From: a phage
Sequence record: PZ490076.1
DNA length: 40,032 nucleotides
Reading direction: 5' to 3' (one strand)
The notes under the pieces are model-generated. The model saw only the letters and a list, made by a program, of their open reading frames with translations. It searched no databases and had not been told where the DNA came from. Below are positions 1 to 40,032 of the stretch, in pieces. Numbering within the stretch: position 1 is the stretch's first letter; every line of letters starts with the position of its first letter. A program made the translations under genes and the position numbers.

Positions 1-127
1 GCGCTACTCATAGTGATTTCCGTTTAATACAGTCGTATATCCCATACCCTATTAGCCAGATGACCGGAGATAAGCATACCCAATGTCCAACACTCATAGT
101 TAACCTCTATCAATTTAAGTGGTAATC
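1..127. repeat. Window-end duplication: bases 1-127 are identical to 39906-40032 (assembly/circularisation overlap, not the phage terminal repeat)
   Basis: Direct comparison of the first and last 127 nt; gives a unit length of 39,905 bp. The junction falls inside the early gene region, not at T7-like genome termini. Confidence 0.9.
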
Positions 128-965: not shown

Positions 966-1137
966 CTTGTTTATCCTTTAGTTAGTGACTATCAGTCAGG
1001 CCGCTATAAGTTAACGACCTGTAGTTAATCACTGTCGGTGCACATTAAGAGTTTATCCAGATTGTTAAAGAGCATTCCCTTCAGTCAGAGGACTTCAGGT
1101 AGACCATTTCAGTGTTGGTCATCACCGTTGTTTCGAT

Positions 1138-1174
1138 GTGGTACAGCTTACATCCTATCGTTACATCTTGTCAA
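1138..1174 (-). promoter_or_regulatory. Host sigma70-type early promoter (T7 A2/A3-like): -35 TTGACA, 18-nt spacer, -10 TAAGCT, followed by GTACCACATCGAAAC
   Basis: Minus strand reads TTGACAAGATGTAACGATAGGATGTAAGCTGTACCACATCG, closely resembling T7 A2/A3 as I recall them (TTGACA...TAAGAT/TACGAT GTACCACATG). Confidence 0.55.
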
Positions 1175-1279: not shown

Positions 1280-1315
1280 GGAAGCTATTAAGCCATAGCC
1301 TAGACCTATAGTCAA
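1280..1315 (-). promoter_or_regulatory. Host sigma70-type early promoter (T7 A1-like): -35 TTGACT, 17-nt spacer, weak -10 CTTAAT
   Basis: Minus strand reads TTGACTATAGGTCTAGGCTATGGCTTAATAGC; layout parallels T7 A1 (TTGACT TAAAGTCTAACCTATAG GATACT). Downstream leader contains AAGTAGACAGCCTGATAAGTC, near-identical to the T7 early leader as recalled. Confidence 0.45.
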
Positions 1316-1426
1316 TAGGTAATTCGAAATAATATTGATTAAGCTATCGTCGGCCTCATGGTGTAAGAGGATATAGTCTTTGACTAACATGTCTTTGACC
1401 TTAAGTCTATAGCTGTGTGTCTATTA

Positions 1427-1517
1427 ACTGTAGGTCTCTGACTGTAGGCGTTGGTGTCTTATGGTTGTGACTGTAGGTATAGCAGGAGTCAATGACTGTA
1501 GGTAGTGAGACTGTAGG
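1427..1517 (-). repeat. Array of 5 short direct repeats (minus-strand CCTACAGTC) just inside the predicted left terminal repeat
   Basis: Plus-strand (G)ACTGTAGG at 1427, 1441, 1469, 1494, 1509; analogous in position to the CCTAAAG-type repeats next to the T7 terminal repeat. Confidence 0.6.
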
Positions 1518-1553
1518 TGTGGACGTAATGTTATACTATAACACTATACAGAT

Positions 1554-1737
1554 AGAGACTCAGAGACAGACCTATAGCTCCAACCTATCGTCTAACCTCC
1601 AGCCATAGCCTAGACCTATCGTTGACCTAACGTCTTGACTATCGGTCCAACCCTATGATAGACTGGCACGGGTAGGGCCTTTGGTCTGGACTTAAAGAGG
1701 GCCTATGGGGGAGACTTGAGGTTCTTGAACTGTGAGA
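1554..1737 (-). repeat. Predicted direct terminal repeat of the linear genome (single collapsed copy, about 184 bp); left genome end at 1737 on the minus strand
   Basis: Minus strand from 1737 reads TCTCACAGTTCAAGAACC...TCCCCCATAGG, resembling the T7 left terminus (TCTCACAGTGTACGG...TTCCCCCATAGGGGG). Region near 1554-1561 (GAGTCTCT ATCTGT) resembles the T7 TR end (GTGTCCCT ATCTGT). Boundaries rest on remembered T7 sequence. Confidence 0.4.
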
Positions 1738-1774
1738 TGTGGTCTCAAACTTTTGGTCCAAAACTCATCGTCAC

Positions 1775-1813
1775 TACTGTAGGCCACAGCCACTGTAGGT
1801 CAAGGACCGTAGG
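1775..1813 (-). repeat. Second short array of the same repeat (3 copies) on the right-end side of the predicted terminal repeat
   Basis: Plus-strand ACTGTAGG at 1775 and 1792, variant ACCGTAGG at 1806. Confidence 0.5.
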
Positions 1814-1976
1814 TCAGGCGACACTAGGATAGACCAGTAAGTAGGATGACCCTAAGTGAGCTTCTATTAAGGTGTTACCTAAAGTCCTTGACTACAATAG
1901 CTAAGGTCAGTAGAGTGAGTCTTTATCCACGTACTGACCTTAGGTCTTCCGCTCATGAATCGTTACCATGATTGCG

Positions 1977-2135
1977 TTAATTACACTGAGACACCAGAGA
2001 ACATACGAGAGTCTCGACCCACCCGACCCACTTACTTCCAGCAGTAACGCCAGCAGCAAGTAGAACAGCAGCAAGAAACCTGTATGTAGCTCGATTGGTC
2101 GCCAGAGCTTTAAGTACAGCTTTGGTCTTTGCCAT
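1977..2135 (-). CDS. Small hydrophobic protein, 52 aa, in the position of T7 gene 19.5
   Basis: Hand translation: MAKTKAVLKALATNRATYRFLAAVLLAAGVTAGSKWVGWVETLVCSLVSQCN; AGGAGG Shine-Dalgarno 11 nt upstream; not in the ORF track because it is under 60 aa. Confidence 0.35.
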   Translation of the reverse strand: MAKTKAVLKALATNRATYRFLAAVLLAAGVTAGSKWVGWVETLVCSLVSQCN

Positions 2136-2314
2136 ATGCTACATACCTCCTGTATCTATGGTCGGTGACTATCTGTATTGGAGGGATTATGATTAATATC
2201 ACCTCCTTCCATCGGTGCAAGCCTTAGGTAAGAACTCGGAGTCTGCCTCCTAAGGTCTTGCATAAAGTCTGCATATGTATATTCACTACAGTAATACTAT
2301 AAGTAACCGGGGGT

Positions 2315-2337
2315 CTTCCCTATAGTGATAGTTAAGT
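2315..2337 (-). promoter_or_regulatory. Phage RNAP promoter (phiOR-like), downstream of the large terminase gene
   Basis: Minus strand CTTAACTATCACTATAGGGAAGACC; matches the family consensus ACTAAACTATCACTATAGG. Confidence 0.65.
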
Positions 2338-2431
2338 CCAAACTCCTTATAAAACAGTAGGTTAGACTGGTAGTAACTATAGGTTACTAACTGCGTATTA
2401 ATTCAGTTTTCGCCTATAGTTATTCATTCAG

Positions 2432-4219
2432 CTAGTGGAACGTAACGTAGGACCCTAGTCCAAGCTCGTCGTCCGTATCGTGAGTTACCCGGACCCCATT
2501 GTCCCAGAACTCAGTGTGGATGGACTCGAAGCCTTTCCGTGGGTTCTCCATCTGTTCTTCCAGCCACTCCTCAGTGACTTCACGTTCGCCTTTGTTGGCA
2601 TCCTTCGCCATAGACTCAACGAAGAACTGTACACCGATAGCCAGCGCATCAAGTCGGTCATCGTGTGCCAATGCTCCACGTTCACGAGAGATACGTGTCA
2701 TCTGGTAGAAGAGAGAGTAGATAGGATTACGAACACCATCCTTATCAGAGGCAGACTGGTAATCTTGGACGATAGCAGCAGCGTTGATGATAAGTCGGTG
2801 AGACCCCATGATAGGCTCCAGAACGTCACAGATGCGGAGCTCCTTCTGACCCTTACTCTTCACTTCAGTTACAGCAGCAGGATGAATACGGGAAGCTACA
2901 GGCTTGAATAGCTCAAGGTACATCCCATCACCGAAGTTACCCTCAATGACGTATTCGTTGACCTTCCACTTACGACCAATCTTAGCTAAGGCTTCCAGAG
3001 TAGAGTCTTCATAGCCACCTCGCATACCGCCAACTTCCATAGCGAAGATGTAGCCGTTTAGCTGATACAGTACCGCATAACCAGTTTCATCCTTACCACG
3101 ACCACTAGGGTCAATGACTAGAATCTTCTGGGTGTACGAACTGAAGGCAGAACCTACAGTCTGATACGTGTGGTATGAGTCACCCATGAGTCCAACGTTA
3201 GGAACGTCCTCACGCTTGTTCTGAGGGTTAGGAAGCCATTGGTATACCATTGGGCTAGACGCTGGGTCCAAGTCGGCTACGATAAGGTCACGGAGCTTCA
3301 GAGGGTACTTCTCGGCATCACTCAGGTTAGGGTTAAGCATGAACTGTAGAGCGAAGCCAGCTTTACCATAGGACAGCTCACGTTCCTTCAGGTCCGTATC
3401 ATCGAATCGTACCTCATCGGTCGGACGCCAGTAGAAGGACTCAGGGTCCTCTTCCAGTTCTGCCTGAAGCATAGGAGCCAGACGGTCGCCGTAAGACTGC
3501 CAGTCCTTCTTATCGCGTGGGTAGCGAGCGGGCCAGATGGTAGTGGTGTATCCACGGCCTTCCAGCTCACGATACAAGGTCATCTCGTTCTGAGGAGTAC
3601 CTAGATAGATGATTGTACCTCCCGGCTTCAGGATAGCGTCGAACTCTTTTACAAGCTCTGACAGACGGTCTCGTGCAGCCTGAGTCGCTGAGTTGTTAGG
3701 AACCTCAACGTCATCGGCAATCAGGATGTCAGCACGACTACCAGTCAACTGACCAGTGATACCAACGGACTTAACCGAAGGTGAGTGGTCTGGCTTGGCT
3801 GGTCCAACGTCGAAGCTGATAACCGCATCTCGCTGCCCCTGCTTAGGTTTGAGTTCCTGAAGCTGAGGCATGAGGTCGATGATTCGCTTGATGAAGATGG
3901 AGTTCGCATCGGCTCGTTCCTTTGAGGCCGACACAATCATGAACTTCAAGTCTGGGTTGTTCCATAGTTTCCAGACCACGAAACCACAGGTCAGAAACGA
4001 CTTACCAATACCACGGAAAGCCTGAAGGATGAAGCGGCGATTATCCCCAGCAGCCAGCTTCTTACACATATCTATCTGGCAGCGGGTTGGAACCGGAAGG
4101 CTAAGAGCTTTCCAGAGAACGAAGATGAAGAACACGAAGTCCTCTTTCATCCTTTTTGTCACGGCCTCATTACGCTCTTGCGGCGTTAACTGCATCAATT
4201 GCCTCCTGTTCAGTATCAA
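2432..4219 (-). CDS. Terminase large subunit (T7 gp19 homolog), 595 aa
   Basis: Translation aligns with T7 gp19 from [18 protein letters not shown] onward ([53 protein letters not shown]). Confidence 0.97.
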
Positions 4220-4556: not shown

Positions 4557-4999
4557 TGCTCCTTCTCTTGCTGTAAGGCTCTCACAGTGTCTTGAAGGGC
4601 CTTAATCCACTTGTCTCCTTTCACTCCGATGGCGATAAGACGTTTAGCATCTCGTTCGTCAAGTTCGGCGTAACCATCAATGAAGCATCGACCGTCACTT
4701 TGCGTGGTTCCACTCGTAGGTTTGACTCGGACGAGCAGCCGCTTATTGTCAGACTTAAGGTCAGTAATAATCCTATCAGTGCTGCCTTCCAGCTCGGACA
4801 TTTCGTCCTGAAACCGTTTGGACACTTTGTTGACTTCAGCTTGGACAGCAAGCCTTGTATCTTCCGATGCCTTAAGATTCGAGGTGTATTCTGCATTGAC
4901 CTTAGCCTCCCACTTGTTGTTAGCGGTGTGGTAGCCACCAGCAAACATCACTGCTGCAAGTAGCCACGGAGCCGCTCTCTTAAATTTTTGAAATACCAT
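4553..4999 (-). CDS. Rz-like i-spanin (T7 gp18.5 homolog), 148 aa
   Basis: N-terminal transmembrane segment (WLLAAVMFAGGY) and strong similarity to T7 gp18.5 (EGSTDRIITDLKSDNKRLLVRVK..DERDAKRLIA..GDKWIKALQDT). Confidence 0.85.
   Translation of the reverse strand: MVFQKFKRAAPWLLAAVMFAGGYHTANNKWEAKVNAEYTSNLKASEDTRLAVQAEVNKVSKRFQDEMSELEGSTDRIITDLKSDNKRLLVRVKPTSGTTQSDGRCFIDGYAELDERDAKRLIAIGVKGDKWIKALQDTVRALQQEKEQ
4621..4896 (-). CDS. Rz1-like o-spanin lipoprotein embedded in the +1 frame of Rz (T7 gp18.7 homolog), about 91 aa from the internal Met
   Basis: Lipobox LTISGC and C-terminus similar to T7 gp18.7 (WKAALIGLLLTLSLTISGCSSES...SLMVTPNLTNEMLNV). Start codon uncertain. Confidence 0.7.
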   Translation of the reverse strand: MQNTPRILRHRKIQGLLSKLKSTKCPNGFRTKCPSWKAALIGLLLTLSLTISGCSSESNLRVEPRKVTVDASLMVTPNLTNEMLNVLSPSE

Positions 5000-5381
5000 A
5001 TGTCTCCTTTAGCATTCTGCTATGAGTTGACTTAGCCCATTCCACGACTTCCTTCAGATTCTTAGTAGGAGCATGAGTTTCTTTCTTACCTCCCATCCTA
5101 ATGTCACCATAGTACATAGTTACACCTTGACGTTTAGCAAACCTAGAGTATACGCCTTTAGGTAGTTCCCTAGAGGATACAGTGTTAGCCTTGTTTGCGC
5201 CTTTAGGTATGCACCTAAGGTTTGACAGTTCGTTATTCATAGGATTCCTGTCAATGTGGTCTATGACGTAGCCATCTGGGATAGGACCGTAGGCTTCCTC
5301 CCATAGTAATCTATGAACCCCATGAACCTTACCATTGCGAGTAACCTTCCAGTACCCACCACTTATGTAAGCGTCTTCCAT
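4980..5381 (-). CDS. Free-standing HNH homing endonuclease, 133 aa, between small terminase and Rz
   Basis: HNH motif (GKVHGVHRLLWEEAYGPIPDGYVIDHIDRNPMNNELSNLRCIPKGANKAN); strong RBS AAGGAGGT 5 nt upstream of ATG. Confidence 0.85.
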   Translation of the reverse strand: MEDAYISGGYWKVTRNGKVHGVHRLLWEEAYGPIPDGYVIDHIDRNPMNNELSNLRCIPKGANKANTVSSRELPKGVYSRFAKRQGVTMYYGDIRMGGKKETHAPTKNLKEVVEWAKSTHSRMLKETYGISKI

Positions 5382-5443: not shown

Positions 5444-5707
5444 TTATTGAACACCATACCCTGTGTCATTATCCTCAGTCGCTGAAAGTACCTTATCGTA
5501 CTCTGCGTTCAGGGCCTCCATATCAGCCAGCGTCTTCTCGTCCACAGACACCTTACTTAACACAAAGTTGTGACGAGCAAGCAGCTTCTCAATGGCGTTG
5601 TAGAGCTGAGGTGAACGCTTAGTGTCATCCCGCAAGTCTTGCAGCATAAGTCGAGCACGCTCAGTATCAAGCATCAAGAGGAACTTCTCTAAGTCCATCT
5701 GCGTCAT
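5444..5707 (-). CDS. Terminase small subunit / DNA maturation protein A (T7 gp18 homolog), 87 aa
   Basis: Similarity to T7 gp18 (FLLMLDTERARLMLQDL...RSPQLYNAIEKLLARH). Confidence 0.85.
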   Translation of the reverse strand: MTQMDLEKFLLMLDTERARLMLQDLRDDTKRSPQLYNAIEKLLARHNFVLSKVSVDEKTLADMEALNAEYDKVLSATEDNDTGYGVQ

Positions 5708-26642: not shown

Positions 26643-27243
26643 CTTTCTGTATTCTCCTATTACTAGGAGTGTCGGACTATATCATCAGCCTTTGAGTTGA
26701 CTGTCTGGCGCTTCGGGTAACGAGGGAGTCTCACCCTCGGCCCTACTCCTTTCGGATAGTCTCTACGCCTTCCACTCTCTAATCCACTTACACGCGGCAG
26801 AGAACGTAACACCAAACTTCTCACCTAAGTGTGTTCCTGTACATCCAGTCTCCAACCAGTATTCCTTCGCGGACTCTTTACGGTCAGCGTAGCGTTCTCT
26901 GTTTGTCTTGACTGTATGCTCAGACCCTTCTAGTAACTGGAGATGCTCTGGATTACAGCATGCCCTGTTCCTACACTTGTGGTCTACTTCATACCCTTCT
27001 GGTATATCTCCGTGCTGTTCCTTCCAGACTGTCCTGTGGTACATCTCTAGGACACCGTTAGTCCTCTTTCGGAAATAACCATCAGCATTAAGTTTGTGTG
27101 ACGTAGGGATGATACAACCACTCTCTGTGGTCGCAAGGATTAACTTCTTGCCTCTCATATATCCTCCCTATGGCTTGGCTCGGTATTGCCCTAGAAGGGT
27201 TTCACCGAGTTCACCAGATTTAATGTGCACAATGAGATAGTTT
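26643..27243 (-). mobile_element. Group I intron (about 601 nt) interrupting the DNA polymerase gene, carrying an HNH endonuclease ORF
   Basis: Exon 1 ends ...AYMAWVH (U at the splice site), exon 2 resumes DEIQV (intron ends in G); possible P1 pairing between exon GUGCAU and intron GUGCAC; group I R-like (AGAGACUA) and S-like (GAUAUAGUCC) elements in the 3' part. Confidence 0.75.
26763..27158 (-). CDS. Intron-encoded HNH homing endonuclease, 131 aa
   Basis: HNH motif (EVDHKCRNRACCNPEHLQLL); GGGAGGA RBS 5 nt upstream; wholly inside the predicted intron. Confidence 0.8.
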   Translation of the reverse strand: MRGKKLILATTESGCIIPTSHKLNADGYFRKRTNGVLEMYHRTVWKEQHGDIPEGYEVDHKCRNRACCNPEHLQLLEGSEHTVKTNRERYADRKESAKEYWLETGCTGTHLGEKFGVTFSAACKWIREWKA

Positions 27244-29322: not shown

Positions 29323-31202
<1,880 letters not shown>

Positions 31203-31966: not shown

Positions 31967-32429
31967 TGTACACCACCAATTCTACGACCACTAGATTCAG
32001 GTGCTGGGTGAAGCGCTGTGCGTCCGTGGTGTGCATCTGGAGACGCTTATGGTTGAAGACGTGTGAGTTGCTAATCTTCACGTAAACTTCTTCAGGCTTT
32101 CCGTGGACGATGAACGTCTGGCCTACACCAATCTTGTCGATGGTCAGGACTTCACGTTTAACGGTGACAGGAGGGACACTTGAGGCTGGCAGGACTTGAG
32201 GTTTATCCTCTACAATTTCCTCAAGATATGCATTTAAAACCCATGCTCCCCACATTCCGTCAGGCTGCGTGTTATGACCCGCGCTACCGTGCTTGTAGTA
32301 GCCACGCTCGGAGGATTCTACCAGGGTACTTCCAACCGTGGAAAACGGGTCTTTCGCACATTTCGTAACGATAGCACCTTTAGGCCACCCGTGGCGGTCA
32401 ACCTTAAGTCTATATTTCTGAGTCATCAC
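31956..32429 (-). CDS. Hypothetical protein, 157 aa, between the endonuclease I and amidase genes (no T7 counterpart)
   Basis: AAAGGAG RBS; start overlaps the gp3 stop; no recognisable motif. Confidence 0.5.
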   Translation of the reverse strand: MMTQKYRLKVDRHGWPKGAIVTKCAKDPFSTVGSTLVESSERGYYKHGSAGHNTQPDGMWGAWVLNAYLEEIVEDKPQVLPASSVPPVTVKREVLTIDKIGVGQTFIVHGKPEEVYVKISNSHVFNHKRLQMHTTDAQRFTQHLNLVVVELVVYNGK

Positions 32430-32878: not shown

Positions 32879-33576
32879 TAGAAGTCGTAATCGCCACCAG
32901 AGTTGGACTCGGAACCACCTTCGGAACCATCGTCACCGAAGTCATCAGACCCGAAGTCACCATCGGTTGACGCTTTGTAGCCTGTACCGAGGTCTTCATC
33001 ATCACCCCAACCACCATCGCCACCTGCACCATCGCCTTTCCACTCCTTCAGTTCTACCAGAAGGCAGGACTCAAGTTGGAGCTTAACGCTTGCACCAGTA
33101 GCAGCGTTCCACTTAAACGGCAGGACTTTAAACTTGACCTTCAGCTTTGAGCCAGCGCCAATATTCGGGACGTCACGGATTAACTTAGCATCGGTGTCGT
33201 AGAACCGTAATATGATAGGCTCTGACTTACCATCCTTCAGGTAAGACGCGAAGCATTTAAACTTCAGGGTAACAGTACCATCACCATTCTCAATCCACGG
33301 CATGTCGCCTTCTCGTGGTTCAATAGGCTTCTTGCCACGCTGAACCTGAGGCGGGTTCTTCTCGTGGTCTGCAAGTGCTTTCGCATACGCATCGTCGTGA
33401 ATCTTCTGTAAGACATCAATCATCTTACGGACCTTCGGGTTGCTCAGGTCGAATGTCAGGTTGACTTTGTGTTCACCACGCTCGTTGAACTTGGTGTCTG
33501 CTTTGTTAAGCCATGCGTAAGGCTCAACGATACCAGCTACCGGAGTGGTGAAAGTCTTCAGTTGCTCTTTAGCCAT
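32878..33576 (-). CDS. Single-stranded DNA-binding protein (T7 gp2.5 homolog), 232 aa
   Basis: Similarity to T7 gp2.5 (GGSKLKVK...WN.A.GASVKLQLES), acidic C-terminal tail ending in F. Confidence 0.9.
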   Translation of the reverse strand: MAKEQLKTFTTPVAGIVEPYAWLNKADTKFNERGEHKVNLTFDLSNPKVRKMIDVLQKIHDDAYAKALADHEKNPPQVQRGKKPIEPREGDMPWIENGDGTVTLKFKCFASYLKDGKSEPIILRFYDTDAKLIRDVPNIGAGSKLKVKFKVLPFKWNAATGASVKLQLESCLLVELKEWKGDGAGGDGGWGDDEDLGTGYKASTDGDFGSDDFGDDGSEGGSESNSGGDYDF

Positions 33577-33616
33577 TGGTGTAAATCTCCTAATTTAAAA
33601 GTTACGAACTGGACGT

Positions 33617-33639
33617 CTGTCCTACAGTGATAGTTTAGG
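33617..33639 (-). promoter_or_regulatory. Phage RNAP promoter (phi2.5-like), variant CACTGTAGG
   Basis: Minus strand GACCTAAACTATCACTGTAGGACAGACG; the gp2 TAA stop lies inside it. Confidence 0.55.
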
Positions 33640-33793
33640 TCTCAGGACGAATCCGTCCGACCACAAACCCAGCGTCCTCATACTCTTGGGACTTCAGGGT
33701 AGCCTCTTCAAGAGACTTTGCGTACACCGGAACCTCGAAGGACTGAATGTGACCCTCAAGCTCCACGATGTACTTCTTCTCTACGTCAGTCAT
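33635..33793 (-). CDS. Host RNA polymerase inhibitor (T7 gp2 homolog), 52 aa
   Basis: Hand translation [52 protein letters not shown] resembles T7 gp2 (..[35 protein letters not shown]..); below the 60-aa track cutoff. Confidence 0.6.
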
Positions 33794-33968
33794 AAACCGC
33801 GCTCCTTCCATTGGTTGTATAACGTGATGTAGTCCGGGTTGAGAGTCTTCTCATACATCTCCCGGCACCACTCACTTGGTTTTACCATATTCCACCTCTA
33901 TCGCCCAATACATTAAACGCAATAATGCACCTACTCCTGCACAGATTAATCCGAAGTACAGAATATCA

Positions 33969-34280
33969 TTAAGCATAACACTTACCTTTATGTTGGTCGA
34001 ACAGCTCCTGATAGAAGGCGGCTTTGTTCAGGTCCTTCTCCATAGTAGCCAGCTCGGACTTCTTACCAGCCCGGAGTCGATACTTCAGGACGTTACCCAT
34101 GCAGAAACCACGGAACTCACTGACAGTCATGGACCGGGCGATAATCTCAATGGATTCCACACCGTCAAAGACCTGATAGTGGGACGGCTTGCGTACACCA
34201 TCGTCTGTATTAGGCGGGTTGCTACAGCTACATACTTCAGCCCCGTTCCATATCGTACAGCCGGGAGCATGCTTAGTCAT
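33969..34280 (-). CDS. T7 gp1.7 (nucleotide kinase) homolog, short form, 103 aa
   Basis: C-terminal 70 aa nearly collinear with the T7 gp1.7 C-terminus (KPSHY..F...E.IE.IARSMTV..F.G.C.GN.LKYRLRAGKKSELA..EKDL.KA.FY.ELF..HK.KCYA); N-terminal part much shorter than T7. Confidence 0.7.
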   Translation of the reverse strand: MTKHAPGCTIWNGAEVCSCSNPPNTDDGVRKPSHYQVFDGVESIEIIARSMTVSEFRGFCMGNVLKYRLRAGKKSELATMEKDLNKAAFYQELFDQHKGKCYA

Positions 34281-34533
34281 TGAATACCTCCTTCACGAAC
34301 TCAACGAACAGGCGAACGCGAGGCCACTTAGTGTAGACCACAGGTACGTTGGTCTCACGCTTCTGGCGAGCCTCCTCCGCTTTGCTCGGAGTAATCAGAG
34401 CGAATACTGTAGGTGATAACTTAACGGCCTTCCCGAAGTAGCCCAGCTTCTCGTTGCGCTTAATGCAAGCGAACGGGTTGTTGGACAGGTGGAAGGTATC
34501 GGTATAACGGTTGAACATTAAGTTCTTAGACAT
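34273..34533 (-). CDS. Hypothetical protein, 86 aa (T7 gene 1.6 position)
   Basis: ORF directly downstream of the phi1.5/1.6-like promoter. Confidence 0.45.
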   Translation of the reverse strand: MSKNLMFNRYTDTFHLSNNPFACIKRNEKLGYFGKAVKLSPTVFALITPSKAEEARQKRETNVPVVYTKWPRVRLFVEFVKEVFND

Positions 34534-34557
34534 AGAGTCTCCTTAGGTTGTTGATGG

Positions 34558-34580
34558 TTGTCCTATAGTGATAGCTTAGG
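34558..34580 (-). promoter_or_regulatory. Phage RNAP promoter (variant, AAGCTATCACTATAGG)
   Basis: Minus strand CCCTAAGCTATCACTATAGGACAACC. Confidence 0.6.
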
Positions 34581-34616
34581 GTCAGGCTGGTTCCCCCAAA
34601 CGATAGCTTGCTAGCA

Positions 34617-34653
34617 CAAAGCAAAGAAACCCAGCAGTCCTAAGACCACTGGG
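34617..34653 (-). terminator. Intrinsic terminator downstream of the ligase gene (T7 TE position)
   Basis: Minus strand CCCAGTGGTCTTAGGACTGCTGGG (10-bp stem, 4-nt loop, two G-U pairs) followed by TTTCTTTGCTTTG. Confidence 0.6.
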
Positions 34654-34664
34654 TTGACATTTAG

Positions 34665-35768
34665 TTAGCTCTTAATGGTCGGATTGTCTTCAGTTCCACG
34701 CCAGCACTTGAAGCTAGGGTGACGAAGTGAGCCATCTGGGAACCGCTCCATGAAGAGGACTTCACACTGCCAGCCTTCGTATGGGTTGGTCTTCTCGGTC
34801 CCATCCTGAATAACCACAGGGCCACCAGCCAAGGTATAGCCACTAGATTCAGCGACTTTAGCTGTGAATTCGTCCTTCTGTTCTTCAGTCAGGCCACAGG
34901 TGTTAACCACCATGCCGTCCTCAAGTAGCACCTCGAAGCCGATGACCTTACCTTCGTTCGCCTTACCCTGAGTCCCCCACACGAGGCCACACACTGTCCC
35001 GTCTATGGTCTCCTCAGGCTTCATTTTCCACATGCCAGACTTCTTGCCACGCTTGTATTTACCAAGCGGGTCCTTGACTACCAGACCCTCGTGTCCTTCC
35101 AGACGCTTCTCTTCGTACAGGGAGCTGAGCGACTCAAGGTCATAGACCGTGTGTGACTCAGACAGAACCCAGTCGATTTCCGGGAAGTATTTCTGGAGGA
35201 GAGGGACGATAGCTTCGGCCTTCAGGCGTGTGACGCTATGAATAGGACCTTCGGCTTTTGGGTCGTTGATGACGTTAAGGTCGATGACCCCGTAGACGAC
35301 CACTCGTAGGGACTCAGGGCTAATCTGGAAGGGAACCTTGTTAGACTTCTTGGTCTCCATATCTGCCTTAGGGTTCATGTTCCACTTGTAGTTCTTGCGG
35401 TCAGACCACATGGTGCGGATAAGACCGGAAGACGTGTTGAAGTCCACGCCTTTGACCATCACCTCGCCATCAATCATTAGGCCAGAGACCTCATGTCCTG
35501 CTTGCTTCAGGAACCAGCGCCAGTCTCCACAGTTTGTTAATTCGGTAGGACTACCATGTTCTGACTTCAGATGCTGAAGCGCTGGGAGAGGTTTAGACTC
35601 ACGGCTCAACCATTGAGTCTCACCAGTAGGGAAGACCGGGAGATTCAGGCGCACACCATCGTACTTCACTTCAGCTTCCAGAGACCCGGCTGCTTCCAGT
35701 GCTTTCTTAACGCCAGACTCAGAGTAATCTACAGCGCGGTGCGGGTTAGTTTTGATAGTCGTTGTCAT
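34665..35768 (-). CDS. ATP-dependent DNA ligase (T7 gp1.3 homolog), about 367 aa
   Basis: KxDG adenylation motif (EVKYDGVR), collinear similarity to T7 ligase (IKTNP..AV, MIDGE.MVKGVDFNT.SGL.RT, EGHEGL.VKDP...YKRGKKSG.WKMKPE, DGSLRHPSF...RGTEDNP); start placed at the second ATG overlapping the gp1.2 stop. Confidence 0.9.
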   Translation of the reverse strand: MTTTIKTNPHRAVDYSESGVKKALEAAGSLEAEVKYDGVRLNLPVFPTGETQWLSRESKPLPALQHLKSEHGSPTELTNCGDWRWFLKQAGHEVSGLMIDGEVMVKGVDFNTSSGLIRTMWSDRKNYKWNMNPKADMETKKSNKVPFQISPESLRVVVYGVIDLNVINDPKAEGPIHSVTRLKAEAIVPLLQKYFPEIDWVLSESHTVYDLESLSSLYEEKRLEGHEGLVVKDPLGKYKRGKKSGMWKMKPEETIDGTVCGLVWGTQGKANEGKVIGFEVLLEDGMVVNTCGLTEEQKDEFTAKVAESSGYTLAGGPVVIQDGTEKTNPYEGWQCEVLFMERFPDGSLRHPSFKCWRGTEDNPTIKS

Positions 35769-36613: not shown

Positions 36614-39295
36614 TTAAGCGAATGCAAAGTCTGAAGACAATATGTCCTCGATATTCAGTTTACCTTTCTTCGGTAGCTCAGGCAACTTGTCGCGCTGGCT
36701 CTCGTGAAGCTGGTATTCGAACTGCTCGTAGAAGTCAAGCAGCACATCGTTGTCGCGGTAGGTCTCGACCATCGTCTCACGGACACCACGGAACAGATAT
36801 TCAGCGTCAGCCGGGATGGTCCCGAAGCTATCGTGAATCACTGCGAATGACATCACGCCATACTTGCGGTGCGTGTGGACTACAGTCTTGCGGAGGTGGC
36901 TACCATCTTGTGAGTGGACGAAGTTCGGGCTAATTCCTGACTCCTGCTTGTGTTTGTCCAGCTCTTTCTTCGTACCTCTGTTGACGGTAGGCTGAAGGTT
37001 GAATGACCCTAAGAACATCAGGTTCAGACGAGTGGTATCCTTCTTGCGGTATTCCTGCCAGACCGGGAAACCATCAGGTGTTACCCAGTGTACCGGAAGG
37101 CAAGGCTTCAGGATTTCTCCAGTCTTCTTGTCCTTCACCTCAGCAGCCAGCAGCTTGGCAGCGCCTTGAAGCCACTTCATCGCGTCAACCGCAGCAACTA
37201 CGGTCACACTCACAGCTTCCCAAATCATCTTAGCCATGAAGCGAGACGCTTGGCTAGGCTCGGTGAACATAGCGCCAGACCCTGAGTCAATCGCTGGCAT
37301 CACGATGTCCTCGTAAACTTGGTCTGCGAAGCCGTACTCTTTCGACCCGTATGCCAGAGTCATGACTGAACGCTTAGTGACCTTACGTGACATCCCGTAT
37401 GTCAGCCACTGACGGGCCAGCTCTCGTGTCCCCAGCTTGATACGTTCGGTAATCTCACCAGTTTTCTTGTCCTCGTGAGTGACCATCTCGTTGTCAGTAC
37501 CGTTAATCAGCAGGACTTTAAGCTCCTCCTCAATGCGGTCAGACACAATGCGGTAGATGTCTTGTACCATACCGGATGGCGTCAGGTTTACTGCATGCCC
37601 ACCGATGTGGTCACGAAGCATCGCACTGAAGTGCTGAATACCAGAGCAGGACCCATCGAACGCTATCGGCAGCGAGCAGGAGTAAGACAGGCCGTGGTGC
37701 ATTACGCCAGCATACTCGAAGCAGAACGCGAGGAAACAGAACGGAGAGTCTAACTTGCCCCACCACTCAATACTATCCATCGGTGCCTTAGCAGCAGCCA
37801 TGATGTTTTCGTGGTTGTCTTCCACCCACTTGATGCGCTCCTCGAAGGTGACTTTATCGACACCCGCGCAGTTTGCACCGTGGACCTTCAGCCATTTGAA
37901 ACCGTCAGCACCAATAGGCTTGCCGACTGCCAGAGTCAGGAGACCCTTCTGCATGTCGTTACCCTGAGGGTTGAACATCGGCACAGCGTAGACGCGCCCT
38001 CGCCAATCCATGTTGTACGGGAACCAGATGGCCTTGAACTGAGAGAACTTGTTAGCTTGGTTAACGATAAAGCTCAGTGACAATCTGCGCGACTGTCTGG
38101 CCTTCTCGCGGCGATAGATACCAGCAGCAGCCTTCTTCCATGCCTTGAGTTCCTCCTCGGTCTCACCAGCATAGTCCTCAGGCTTCAGCGGCTCCATCTG
38201 AGGGATGTCATCAATAGGTGTGTTGTTCAGCTTCTCGACCATGTTCACCACGTCCAATACCTTCTTGTTCACTTTCCAAGGTGTATTCTGGATGATATTC
38301 ACAGCGTCATAGACTTCAGGCATGTATACGTCTTCATAACGTGCTACCGCAGACTTAGACCCTAAGCGAATCAATGGTAACGGTCTGCGACCTTTGGCCC
38401 AGTACCCACCGCCTACGACACCAGTCCACGGCTTAGGTGGAACGACGCAAGGCTGGTAGACTGGAGCGATACCCGCAAGGCTGAATCCTCGTTGTGCCAT
38501 CTTCTTGACCCAGAAGTCTGACAGGTGGACCATCTCTACGTCAGTCGCTGCATTGCCAGCACCGTACCGCTTAAGCTCGACCAGTTGTGTTGACTGGATG
38601 ACAATCTCGAGCATCTTGATGCCAACGTGGACAGCCTCTGTAGGACTCCAAGTCCCCCACGCATCTTCCAGTTGACCTTGCTCCAGCATGGACGCCTCGA
38701 CCGCTTGCATGTAGGCTTTCTTGTAGGACGCCCCGGCCCGCTTATTCAGGTTATCAGCTATCGCCTTCTTGAAGTGCTCTTTCTCTTTGTCACGGATGCG
38801 ACCGAAGCGGATTTCGTCCTCAAGTGTGCGACCTATCGCGGAGGCCATAGGTGTAATTGGTATCCCTTCGGGCTTGACCAGCTTGGAGAGTATGACCTTC
38901 AGTATGATAACCGCAGCGGACTCACAGGAGATGCGCATAGAGCGGTCCTTGACGGCCTTCTCTTCAGTGCTCAACATGGTGAACGCTACGCTAGGACGAG
39001 AGGTTGACAGCTTTCCGTCTGGACCTTCATGCCACTCCCTGACGGCTTGCGCAATCTTAGGGACCAGAGTCTGCATCAAAGGCTTGGCGACCTGATTGTC
39101 TGCCAGTTCCCCGCGCTCAGTCTGTCGCTCAAGGTTTTTGATGAAACGTCGCTCGCCTTCAGTGTATGCCTCATGCTCAAGCTGAAGCTGTTTAACTGCA
39201 AGGTCTTGCCCGTAGTGGTCGGCCAGCAGGTTAAACGGCTCAATGGCGTTCGACACATCAGAGAAGTCGTGTTTGTCAATAGAGATGACGCTCAT
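36614..39295 (-). CDS. Single-subunit DNA-dependent RNA polymerase (T7 gene 1 homolog), 893 aa
   Basis: Collinear with T7 RNAP including C-terminus ...DILSSDFAFA (T7 ...DILESDFAFA), RGRVYAVPMFNPQGNDM, SGIQHFSAMLRD, PNFVHSQDGSHLRKT, LIHDSFGT. Confidence 0.98.
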   Translation of the reverse strand: MSVISIDKHDFSDVSNAIEPFNLLADHYGQDLAVKQLQLEHEAYTEGERRFIKNLERQTERGELADNQVAKPLMQTLVPKIAQAVREWHEGPDGKLSTSRPSVAFTMLSTEEKAVKDRSMRISCESAAVIILKVILSKLVKPEGIPITPMASAIGRTLEDEIRFGRIRDKEKEHFKKAIADNLNKRAGASYKKAYMQAVEASMLEQGQLEDAWGTWSPTEAVHVGIKMLEIVIQSTQLVELKRYGAGNAATDVEMVHLSDFWVKKMAQRGFSLAGIAPVYQPCVVPPKPWTGVVGGGYWAKGRRPLPLIRLGSKSAVARYEDVYMPEVYDAVNIIQNTPWKVNKKVLDVVNMVEKLNNTPIDDIPQMEPLKPEDYAGETEEELKAWKKAAAGIYRREKARQSRRLSLSFIVNQANKFSQFKAIWFPYNMDWRGRVYAVPMFNPQGNDMQKGLLTLAVGKPIGADGFKWLKVHGANCAGVDKVTFEERIKWVEDNHENIMAAAKAPMDSIEWWGKLDSPFCFLAFCFEYAGVMHHGLSYSCSLPIAFDGSCSGIQHFSAMLRDHIGGHAVNLTPSGMVQDIYRIVSDRIEEELKVLLINGTDNEMVTHEDKKTGEITERIKLGTRELARQWLTYGMSRKVTKRSVMTLAYGSKEYGFADQVYEDIVMPAIDSGSGAMFTEPSQASRFMAKMIWEAVSVTVVAAVDAMKWLQGAAKLLAAEVKDKKTGEILKPCLPVHWVTPDGFPVWQEYRKKDTTRLNLMFLGSFNLQPTVNRGTKKELDKHKQESGISPNFVHSQDGSHLRKTVVHTHRKYGVMSFAVIHDSFGTIPADAEYLFRGVRETMVETYRDNDVLLDFYEQFEYQLHESQRDKLPELPKKGKLNIEDILSSDFAFA

Positions 39296-39392: not shown

Positions 39393-39719
39393 TTACTTGC
39401 ATATCAGTGGGTTAGCGTGAAGATGACTGAAGTCACCGTGAGTCGTGTGCTTGATGGTTGACCGTTGGTCTATCGCCTTCCAGCCTGAGACTAAAAGTTT
39501 ACCATCGTCAGTGATCGGTCGTCCGCCATACGCCAGACACATCAGTTCGGACTTATGGCCCTCTGCCCGGAGTCGTGCCTGTAGTACACGGTCCCGCTCC
39601 TGCTGTTGACGTGCGGCGTGACTTGACGTTCCGTGACGATACCCGGTAGCCAGTAGGCTTAACATATTCATTTCTGCGTCCATAGAGTGTACCAAATTAA
39701 TCCCGTATGACTTGTTCAT
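39393..39719 (-). CDS. Hypothetical early protein, 108 aa from MNKSYG (the track gives a longer 125-aa form starting at 39770)
   Basis: ORF between the kinase-like gene and the RNAP gene; TAATG coupling with the upstream 65-aa ORF; no recognised homolog. Confidence 0.4.
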   Translation of the reverse strand: MNKSYGINLVHSMDAEMNMLSLLATGYRHGTSSHAARQQQERDRVLQARLRAEGHKSELMCLAYGGRPITDDGKLLVSGWKAIDQRSTIKHTTHGDFSHLHANPLICK

Positions 39720-39916
39720 TACAGTTTGCTCCCAAGAGTTGCTATATCCCAGACGTTCGCGAGGTTGCATATGAATCGTCCGTTAGGCTGACGTACAGTC
39801 CAGCGGACCATACGTACATAGTTGAATTTATAGACTTTACGCGCTTTGTTGATGTCTCTCACCAGCACGTAGGCGATAAGTCCATAGCCTATGGCTATCA
39901 ATATTGCGCTACTCAT
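39719..39916 (-). CDS. Hypothetical small early protein with a hydrophobic N-terminus, 65 aa
   Basis: ORF track; N-terminus MSSAILIAIGYGLIAYVLV looks membrane-anchored; start lies in the window-end overlap region. Confidence 0.35.
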   Translation of the reverse strand: MSSAILIAIGYGLIAYVLVRDINKARKVYKFNYVRMVRWTVRQPNGRFICNLANVWDIATLGSKL

Positions 39917-40032
39917 AGTGATTTCCGTTTAATACAGTCGTATATCCCATACCCTATTAGCCAGATGACCGGAGATAAGCATACCCAATGTCCAACACTC
40001 ATAGTTAACCTCTATCAATTTAAGTGGTAATC

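What the first reader, a model, noticed from the sequence alone, without database searches (positions are those of the whole stretch)
1427..1813. Probable physical genome ends and terminal repeat lie inside the window (about 1554-1737), flanked by short repeat arrays
Minus-strand sequence from 1737 (TCTCACAGTTCAAGAACC...TCCCCCATAGG) resembles the T7 left terminus, and the segment around 1554-1561 resembles the end of the T7 terminal repeat. Arrays of CCTACAGTC repeats lie on both sides (1427-1517; 1775-1813), as the CCTAAAG repeats do in T7. The packaged linear genome would then be about 39,905 + 184 bp with the collapsed repeat here.
Basis: partly seen in the sequence, partly recalled or inferred. 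Interest (0 to 1): 0.4.

Follow-up and report, generated by a model that had tools for sequence, protein, structure and literature searches.

The report
T7-type terminal repeat of K1F-like phage

Summary
The observation and the interpretation both hold. The window is a circularised assembly (first 127 nt = last 127 nt; 39,905 unique bp) of a Kayfunavirus that is 99.98-100% identical to Escherichia phage BUCT788. All its genes are on the minus strand.

On the minus strand, 1737->1554 (184 nt) aligns end to end with the direct terminal repeats of T7, K1F, SH3 and SH4 (ends mapped by run-off sequencing of virion DNA) and Penshu1 (PhageTerm). The first base (…ACA|TCTCACAGT) falls in the same alignment column in all of them. 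The last base (…GAGTCTCT|ATCTGT) matches T7, SH4 and Penshu1, with K1F at -1 and the SH3 record at +4.

The rest of a T7 concatemer junction is also present:
- a T7-class large terminase (64% identical to gp19);
- a consensus phage promoter 583 nt upstream of the repeat;
- a gp19.5 homologue;
- a conserved hairpin-forming inverted repeat 185 nt before the repeat;
- ATCTGTA at the position of T7's class II pause signal;
- same-strand CCTACAGT arrays on both sides (13 copies in the window against 1.8 expected, 7 of them here).

The predicted virion DNA is about 40,089 bp. Direct proof needs reads or virion DNA. Novelty is nil and interest is low.

The parts
1554..1737 (-). Collapsed direct terminal repeat, 184 nt. 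The left physical end of the virion DNA is predicted at 1737 (TCTCACAGT...). The right physical end is predicted at 1554 (...GAGTCTCT), with uncertainty of about -1 to +4 nt.
   Evidence: Single copy in the window. It aligns column for column with the terminal repeats of T7, K1F, SH3, SH4 and Penshu1. It is 87-92% identical to the repeats at base 1 of many Kayfunavirus records.
1547..1553 (-). ATCTGTA immediately after the repeat, the positional counterpart of the T7 concatemer-junction class II pause/termination signal ATCTGTT.
   Evidence: ATCTGT is invariant at this position in all aligned relatives and in T7. The role of the T7 signal is taken from bioRxiv 10.64898/2026.02.12.705533 and PMC3276506.
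1427..1517 (-). Left-side short-repeat array: five CCTACAGT units spaced 14-29 nt apart (counterpart of the T7 CCTAAAG array after its repeat).
   Evidence: Copy number is 4-7 in K1F, SH3, SH4 and Penshu1.
1776..1813 (-). Right-side short-repeat array: CCTACGGT, CCTACAGT, CCTACAGT, just before the repeat (counterpart of the T7 array left of its right-hand repeat).
   Evidence: Nearly invariant in relatives.
1738..1775 (-). Conserved unique sequence abutting the left-terminus cut site (...GATGAGTTTTGGACCAAAAGTTTGAGACCACA|).
   Evidence: Identical or nearly identical in K1F, SH3, SH4 and Penshu1 and in the IMG/VR and metagenome relatives. High in the conservation profile.
1896..1948 (-). Hairpin-forming inverted repeat with 17-nt arms (1896-1912 / 1932-1948). 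Its centre is 185 nt before the repeat and it starts 29 nt after the gp19.5 stop. It is a candidate counterpart of the T7 concatemer-processing hairpin.
   Evidence: (I6). The DNA fold is -11.3 kcal/mol (z = -3.26) on the minus strand and -12.8 kcal/mol (z = -4.15) on the plus strand. The arms are invariant and the loop variable in relatives. The T7 inverted repeat is centred 190 nt before its repeat.
1977..2135 (-). gp19.5-family small ORF (52 aa), the last gene before the right end.
   Evidence: phrog_2193, E = 1.7e-24. BUCT788 annotates it as 'gp19.5 family protein'.
2313..2340 (-). Consensus phage-RNAP promoter (TTAACTATCACTATAGGGA, +1 at 2320) reading toward the junction, the counterpart of T7 phiOR.
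   Evidence: It matches 22 of 28 positions of the window's own promoter consensus. It lies 583 nt before the repeat, against 549 nt for T7 phiOR.
2432..4219 (-). Large terminase subunit (T7 gp19 class). The likely true start is the ATG at 4195, following the BUCT788 annotation.
   Evidence: 64% identity to T7 gp19 over 579 aa. phrog_38, E = 7.5e-131.
5444..5707 (-). Small terminase subunit (T7 gp18 class).
   Evidence: phrog_1351, E = 1.2e-34.
1287..1316 (-). Ambiguous promoter-like element about 248 nt after the repeat. It combines TATTGACT (the same 8-mer as in the -35 region of T7 promoter A1) with a partial phage-promoter core GACTATAGG. It could correspond to phiOL or to A1.
   Evidence: It is only a weak match (14 of 28) to the phage promoter consensus, so the assignment is not settled.
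1136..1174 (-). Early host-RNAP promoter candidate resembling T7 A3 (TTGACA, 18-nt spacer, TAAGCT, then GTACCACAT).
   Evidence: Direct comparison with T7 A3, TTGACA..TACGATGTACCACAT. The automated sigma-70 scan did not report it.
1..127 (.). Assembler overlap identical to 39906-40032. This is the arbitrary circularisation point, not a genome end.
   Evidence: The BUCT788 record has the same kind of 127-nt overlap.

Best explanation
The window is a circularised assembly of a Kayfunavirus (K1F-like, T7 group) genome. Window 1554-1737 is the single, collapsed copy of its short direct terminal repeat, that is, the concatemer junction. In the virion the DNA is linear and not permuted. It starts at 1737 reading down the minus strand (TCTCACAGT...), runs once round the 39,905-bp unique sequence, and ends with a second copy of the 184-nt repeat at 1554 (...GAGTCTCT). 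The total is about 40,089 bp.

The mechanism is inferred from T7 and T3. Replication gives head-to-tail concatemers with one repeat copy per junction. Phage RNA polymerase transcribing from the phiOR-like promoter at 2320 pauses at the ATCTGT signal just past the repeat and recruits the gp18/gp19 terminase. Terminase cuts at fixed sites. The repeat is duplicated by DNA synthesis, probably via the hairpin-forming inverted repeat about 185 nt upstream, so that every packaged genome carries a repeat at both ends.

The CCTACAGT arrays on either side are this genus's version of T7's CCTAAAG arrays. Their function is not established even in T7.
For: Shown here:
- The assembly is circular with one repeat copy.
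- The region matches 386 phage records and is 100% identical to BUCT788. The 184-mer matches bases 1-179/180 of K1F, YZ1, LS2, LS3, ECG4, Penshu1, EPr2 and others, with a second place at the other record end in many of them.
- K1F carries an exact 178-nt repeat at both record ends. Penshu1 has a PhageTerm repeat at 1-179, and its unique right end stops at ...GAGACCACA, as at window 1738.
- SH3 and SH4 repeats are annotated as 184 and 191 nt and were mapped by run-off sequencing of virion DNA (PMC4925675).
- In the multiple alignment the repeat's first base falls in one column for all six genomes. Its last base falls in one column for the window, T7, SH4 and Penshu1.
- The large terminase is 64% identical to T7 gp19. 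The small terminase, the single-subunit RNAP and gp19.5 are identified.
- The phiOR-like promoter is mapped. The hairpin folds better than shuffles (z = -3.3 and -4.2), has invariant arms and a variable loop, and sits at the same offset as the T7 inverted repeat.
- ATCTGT is invariant at the repeat boundary in 11 further metagenome contigs, and one contig (L052) starts exactly at TCTCACAG.

From the literature:
- The concatemer junction is a class II pause/terminator.
- The repeats must be duplicated during processing, and a hairpin intermediate has been seen in T7 (PMC4281155).
Against: There is no read-level or virion-DNA evidence for this particular phage; everything rests on homology. The right boundary differs by -1 (K1F record) to +4 (SH3 record) among references. 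The pause motif is ATCTGTA, not the ATCTGTT reported as strictly conserved for T7 RNAP, and pausing by a K1F-type RNAP is untested. The coordinate of the T7 hairpin intermediate (about nt 39,587) is my recollection of Chung, Nardone & Hinkle 1990 and was not checked against the paper. Unlike T7, the repeat itself contains no copy of the array unit.
Confidence: 0.92

Rival explanations
1. Same T7-type mechanism, but the exact right-hand cut is not at 1554. The repeat would be 183 nt (K1F-like, ending ...GAGTCTC at 1555) or up to 188 nt (SH3-record-like, ending ...CTATCT at 1550).
For: The K1F record repeat ends 1 nt earlier and the SH3 record repeat 4 nt later at the homologous position. The SH3 paper gives 183 nt while the record annotates 184 nt.
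Against: T7 (the best-characterised case), SH4 (run-off sequencing) and Penshu1 (PhageTerm) all end at the column of window 1554. Differences of 1-4 nt in deposited records may come from run-off artefacts such as untemplated A addition, which the SH3 paper itself discusses.
Confidence: 0.2
2. The genome is packaged by a headful mechanism and is circularly permuted. In that case 1554-1737 would be only a conserved non-coding regulatory or origin region, not the ends.
For: The assembly is circular, as a permuted genome would also be. There are no reads to check.
Against: The terminase is 64% identical to T7 gp19. Close relatives have fixed ends mapped experimentally at exactly this sequence. A circular assembly is also expected when a terminal repeat is collapsed, and here the overlap is an assembler k-mer overlap (127 nt) located elsewhere in the genome.
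Confidence: 0.02
3. The resemblance to the T7 ends and the motif clusters arose by chance in an AT/GC-balanced non-coding stretch.
For: None beyond the short length of the individual motifs.
Against: CCTACAGT occurs 13 times against 1.83 expected, and 0 of 100 shuffles reached 13. TCTCACAGT occurs once on the minus strand, at 1737, and once on the plus strand, at 4580. The whole 184-mer is 87-92% identical to the terminal repeats of many relatives.
Confidence: 0.005

Closest known systems
Direct terminal repeat / concatemer junction of coliphage K1F and other Kayfunavirus phages (SH3, SH4, Penshu1, GA2A, CR44b)
   Same: The terminus sequences are the same (…GAGACCACA|TCTCACAGTTCAAGAACC and …GAGTCTCT|ATCTGTAT). 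Repeat length is similar: 178-191 nt in the references against 184 nt here. The CCTACAGT arrays lie on both sides, and the hairpin arms and gene order (gene 19, phiOR, 19.5, repeat) match. Identity is 87-92% within the repeat and higher in the unique right end.
   Different: The differences are small. This repeat has a 4-5-nt insertion (CCCGTGCC against CCCC in K1F), its left array has 5 units against 4-7 in the references, and the middle of the repeat is diverged. The deposited near-identical genome (BUCT788) is permuted and does not annotate the repeat.
Bacteriophage T7 160-bp terminal repeat and concatemer junction (Dunn & Studier 1983; Chung & Hinkle 1990; Zhang & Studier 2004)
   Same: The first 9 nt are identical (TCTCACAGT), and CCCCCATAGG sits at the same offset. 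The repeat end has the same context (TCTCTG.GTC.CT|ATCTGT). A phage promoter lies 549 nt (T7) or 583 nt (window) upstream. gp19.5 is followed by an inverted repeat 190 nt (T7) or 185 nt (window) before the repeat. Same-strand short-repeat arrays flank both sides. The terminase is 64% identical.
   Different: The array unit is CCTACAGT here against CCTAAAG in T7. T7 has three units inside its repeat and this repeat has none. The repeat is 184 nt against 160 nt. The seventh base of the pause motif is A, not T. The hairpin arms have a different sequence.

Membership tests
T7-type short exact direct terminal repeat (Studiervirinae concatemer junction) | The same sequence is physically present at both ends of non-permuted linear virion DNA | not testable with these tools
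   Only a collapsed circular assembly is available. This needs reads or virion DNA.
T7-type short exact direct terminal repeat (Studiervirinae concatemer junction) | Both repeat boundaries are homologous to boundaries mapped experimentally in relatives | tested here: met
   The first base falls in the same column as base 1 of T7, K1F, SH3, SH4 and Penshu1. The last base falls in the same column as T7, SH4 and Penshu1, with K1F at -1 and SH3 at +4. The SH3 and SH4 ends were mapped by run-off sequencing.
T7-type short exact direct terminal repeat (Studiervirinae concatemer junction) | T7 gp19-class large terminase and gp18-class small terminase | tested here: met
   64% identity to T7 gp19 over 579 aa. 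phrog_38 and phrog_1351.
T7-type short exact direct terminal repeat (Studiervirinae concatemer junction) | A single-subunit phage RNAP, with a phage promoter transcribing across the junction (phiOR) | tested here: met
   An 893-aa RNAP matches phrog_414. A consensus promoter with +1 at 2320 points toward the repeat.
T7-type short exact direct terminal repeat (Studiervirinae concatemer junction) | A class II pause signal (H-ATCTGTT) at the right boundary of the repeat | tested here: inconclusive
   T-ATCTGTA sits at exactly the homologous position. ATCTGT is invariant in all relatives, but the seventh base differs from the motif described as strictly conserved for T7 RNAP. Pausing by this RNAP is untested.
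T7-type short exact direct terminal repeat (Studiervirinae concatemer junction) | Same-strand short-repeat arrays flanking the repeat on both sides | tested here: met
   There are 5 units on the left and 3 on the right, all on the minus strand. The motif is enriched 13 against 1.83 expected. The unit differs from T7's.
T7-type short exact direct terminal repeat (Studiervirinae concatemer junction) | A hairpin-forming inverted repeat about 190 nt left of the junction | tested here: met
   Window inverted repeat: centre 185 nt before the repeat, z = -3.3 and -4.2, arms conserved. T7 inverted repeat: centre 190 nt before its repeat. That this T7 inverted repeat is the published hairpin is from memory.
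Genus Kayfunavirus (K1F-like) | High nucleotide identity and collinearity with K1F-like genomes | tested here: met
   99.98-100% identity to BUCT788 over the whole genome. 90-96% identity to many Kayfunavirus records over 1000-2500.
Headful (pac) packaging with circular permutation | A P22/T4/Mu-type headful terminase and no fixed ends in relatives | tested here: not met
   The terminase is of the T7 gp19 class. Relatives have fixed, mapped ends.

The most novel reading that the evidence does not exclude
The flanking octamer arrays and the conserved hairpin may be genus-specific protein-recognition elements of the packaging signal, for example for small terminase or an RNAP-terminase complex. 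In that case the array unit has switched from CCTAAAG (T7/T3-like) to CCTACAGT (Kayfunavirus) while the cut-site sequences TCTCACAG and ATCTGT stayed fixed. Contigs L034, L040, L048 and L057 share the same first 18 nt of the left terminus but carry CCTAAAG arrays. This suggests that the terminus and the arrays evolve as separable modules. That would give a comparative route to the still-unknown function of the T7 arrays.
Probability: 0.2. Interest if true: 0.35.

Novelty: already known. Interest (0 to 1): 0.1.

Why it matters
The value is practical, not conceptual. The finding gives the correct start, orientation and true length (about 40,089 bp) for this genome and for the essentially identical BUCT788 record, which is deposited permuted with a 127-nt assembler overlap and no repeat annotation. 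It also flags a probably spurious CDS drawn across the repeat boundary. It adds nothing new to the biology of T7-group packaging.

Tried and rejected
- The K1F genome paper (Scholl & Merril 2005) could not be read by DOI or PMC id. K1F's 179-bp repeat is cited second-hand from PMC4925675.
- Two paper searches failed on the minimum term length. The full-text search for 'CCTAAAG' returned only unrelated primer hits.
- The contig-end pile-up test in IMG/VR was uninformative. Most hits are deposited isolate genomes, and the metagenomic ones are circularised. In the metagenome scan only 1 of 11 related contigs starts exactly at the terminus, which is anecdotal support only.
- The sigma-70 and terminator scan of 900-2500 found nothing above shuffle expectation (4 against 2.4). 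The A3-like early promoter rests on direct comparison with T7 only.
- I first called the site at 1306 a phiOL equivalent. It matches the phage promoter consensus poorly (14 of 28) and equally resembles the -35 region of T7 A1, so I left it ambiguous.
- No covariation test of the hairpin was possible. The arms are invariant within the genus and cannot be aligned between genera.

Full report
**What the window is.** The first and last 127 nt of the window are identical, so it is a circularised assembly with 39,905 unique bp. All long ORFs lie on the minus strand. Region 1000-2500 matches 386 phage records. It is 100% identical to Escherichia phage BUCT788 and 90-96% identical to many Kayfunavirus (K1F-like, Autographiviridae, Studiervirinae) genomes. 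Over the whole genome the window is 99.98-100% identical to BUCT788 apart from one indel. The BUCT788 record also carries a 127-nt end overlap, so neither assembly shows the real ends.

**Checking the observation.** The minus strand from 1737 reads TCTCACAGTTCAAGAACCTCAAGTCTCCCCCATAGG. T7 begins TCTCACAGTGTACGGACCTAAAGTTCCCCCATAGG. Minus 1570->1554 reads TCTGTCTCTGAGTCTCT and is followed by ATCTGTATAG. The T7 160-bp repeat ends GTCTCTCTGTGTCCCT and is followed by ATCTGTTACAG. The 184-nt segment occurs once in the window.

CCTACAGT occurs 13 times in the window against 1.83 +/- 1.26 expected, and no shuffle out of 100 reached 13. Seven of the ten minus-strand copies lie at 1427-1517 and 1776-1799, and a variant CCTACGGT lies at 1806-1813. 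The only correction is that the conserved unit is the 8-mer CCTACAGT, not the 9-mer.

**Are these the genome ends?** The 184-mer matches bases 1-179/180 of many linear Kayfunavirus records (K1F, YZ1, LS2, LS3, ECG4, Penshu1, EPr2 and others). Many of these have a second match at the other end of the record.
- K1F's record carries an exact 178-nt repeat at both ends.
- Penshu1's record annotates 1-179 as a 'direct terminal repeat predicted by PhageTerm', with the right copy not duplicated. Its record therefore ends in unique sequence...TTTGAGACCACA, exactly the sequence that precedes window 1737.
- SH3 and SH4 carry annotated short direct terminal repeats of 184 and 191 nt. Their ends were determined by primer run-off sequencing on virion DNA, and the paper reports 183 and 190 bp (PMC4925675).

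I reconstructed junctions (unique right end + repeat + unique left end) for T7, K1F, SH3, SH4 and Penshu1 and aligned them with the window's minus strand. The first base of the repeat falls in one alignment column for all six. The last base falls in one column for the window, T7, SH4 and Penshu1, with the K1F record 1 nt shorter and the SH3 record 4 nt longer.

In 11 further related metagenome contigs...CT|ATCTGT lies 176-190 nt (Kayfunavirus) or 227-229 nt (T3-like) after TCTCACAG. One contig (L052) begins exactly at TCTCACAG.

**The rest of the junction.** Reading the minus strand in phage orientation:
- The large terminase is at 4219/4195->2432. It is 64% identical to T7 gp19 and matches phrog_38.
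- A consensus phage-RNAP promoter has its +1 at 2320. It matches 22 of 28 positions of the window's own consensus ..CTAAACTATCACTATAGG... It lies 583 nt before the repeat, against 549 nt for T7 phiOR.
- A gp19.5-family ORF is at 2135->1977.
- An inverted repeat at 1948-1932 / 1912-1896 folds as DNA at -11.3 kcal/mol (z = -3.3) on the minus strand and -12.8 kcal/mol (z = -4.2) on the plus strand. Its arms are invariant and its loop variable among relatives.
- The three-unit right array is at 1813-1776.
- A highly conserved unique stretch runs up to the cut site.
- The repeat is at 1737-1554.
- ATCTGTA is at 1553-1547.
- The five-unit left array is at 1517-1427. Its copy number is 4-7 in relatives.
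- An ambiguous promoter-like element lies near 1306-1316, and an A3-like early promoter near 1174.
- The first early gene is at 965->462.

T7's strongest local inverted repeat is centred 190 nt before its right-hand repeat and starts 30 nt after the gene 19.5 stop. The window's inverted repeat is centred 185 nt before the repeat and starts 29 nt after the gp19.5 stop. T7/T3-like relatives carry T7-type arms (GAGGGAT...ATCCCT) at that place. As I recall it, that T7 site is where the hairpin intermediate of Chung, Nardone & Hinkle (1990) maps. I could not read that paper.

**Mechanism (inferred from T7 and T3).** Concatemers carry one repeat per junction, and the repeat has to be duplicated during processing. 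A hairpin intermediate has been observed in T7 (PMC4281155, citing Molineux 2006 and Chung & Hinkle). [quoted passage not shown] The junction signal is a class II pause/terminator with a seven-base conserved motif. The window has every sequence component needed for this scheme. Two points stay open. Its pause motif ends in A rather than T, as in all Kayfunaviruses, so function with the K1F-type RNAP is inferred, not shown. The role of the flanking arrays is unknown even in T7.

**Rivals.**
- Headful or permuted packaging is contradicted by the terminase class and by the mapped fixed ends of close relatives.
- Chance resemblance is excluded.
- The only live alternative is a shift of the right-hand cut by a few bases.

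**Verdict.** The predicted virion DNA is 39,905 + 184 = 40,089 bp. It starts at window 1737, reads leftward on the minus strand, and has the repeat at both ends. This is a textbook feature of the T7 group, already mapped experimentally in the same genus. The novelty rating is 'already known', and interest is low. The practical value lies in re-orienting and correctly annotating this genome and BUCT788.

Noticed in passing
window 1-127 and 39906-40032: The two window ends are identical over exactly 127 nt, an assembler k-mer overlap at an arbitrary circularisation point in the early region. The BUCT788 GenBank record (40,473 bp) has the same kind of 127-nt overlap.
   Followed up: yes
window about 117-168 (BUCT788 PV540240.1 31823-32315, locus L010): BUCT788 has about 441 bp that the window lacks. 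The segment is flanked by 52-55-nt direct repeats that are 80% identical, and it contains hypothetical CDS 31982-32245. The deletion point coincides with the window's own ends, so it could be a real deletion between repeats or an assembly collapse.
   Followed up: partly
window 1492-1608 (+ strand); BUCT788 30383-30499: BUCT788 annotates a 38-aa hypothetical protein (XTB81143.1) on the strand opposite to all other genes. It straddles the right boundary of the terminal repeat and the CCTACAGT array, so it is very likely a spurious gene call.
   Followed up: partly
window 1601-1622 and 1291-1312: A 22-nt direct repeat with 21 of 22 positions identical (AGCCATAGCCTAGACCTAT[C/A]GT on the + strand). 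One copy is inside the terminal repeat. The other overlaps the promoter-like element TATTGACTATAGG about 248 nt past the repeat. K1F has a weaker second copy (18 of 22) at nt 430. Its meaning is unknown.
   Followed up: partly
window 36614-39295 (-); BUCT788 33489-35723: The RNAP ORF in the window is 893 aa, and its phrog_414 match covers aa 30-893. BUCT788 annotates only 744 aa, so the deposited annotation appears to be truncated at the N-terminus by about 149 aa.
   Followed up: partly
loci L034, L040 (IMG/VR) and L048, L057 (metagenome): These T3/T7-like phages share the identical first 18 nt of the left terminus (TCTCACAGTTCAAGAACC) but have CCTAAAG arrays, T7-type hairpin arms and 227-229-nt repeats. 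The terminus sequence is conserved across genera while the array unit differs.
   Followed up: partly
KT990215.1 (GA2A; L003, L004) and OM256482.1 (EPr2; L015): Deposited terminal-repeat annotations are inconsistent. GA2A's left repeat_region is 1-165 and its right one is 40274-40470; the record starts with an extra A, and the right copy carries an internal duplication, so no exact end repeat is found. EPr2 annotates the repeat at both 1-179 and 501-679.
   Followed up: no
locus L052 (ERZ1643247 NODE-5114) and L051 (OBJT01000018.1): One raw metagenome contig (L052) begins exactly at TCTCACAG, consistent with a physical end. Another related contig (L051) happens to be 40,089 bp, the length predicted here, but it is a different phage (190-nt repeat, different flank), so this is probably a coincidence.
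   Followed up: partly
window 4980-5381 (-) and 26763-27158 (-): By coordinate mapping, these two ORFs correspond to the BUCT788 CDSs annotated as a homing endonuclease (between the small terminase and the spanin) and an HNH endonuclease (after the DNA polymerase). These are typical mobile insertions in T7-group genomes. I did not examine them.
   Followed up: no
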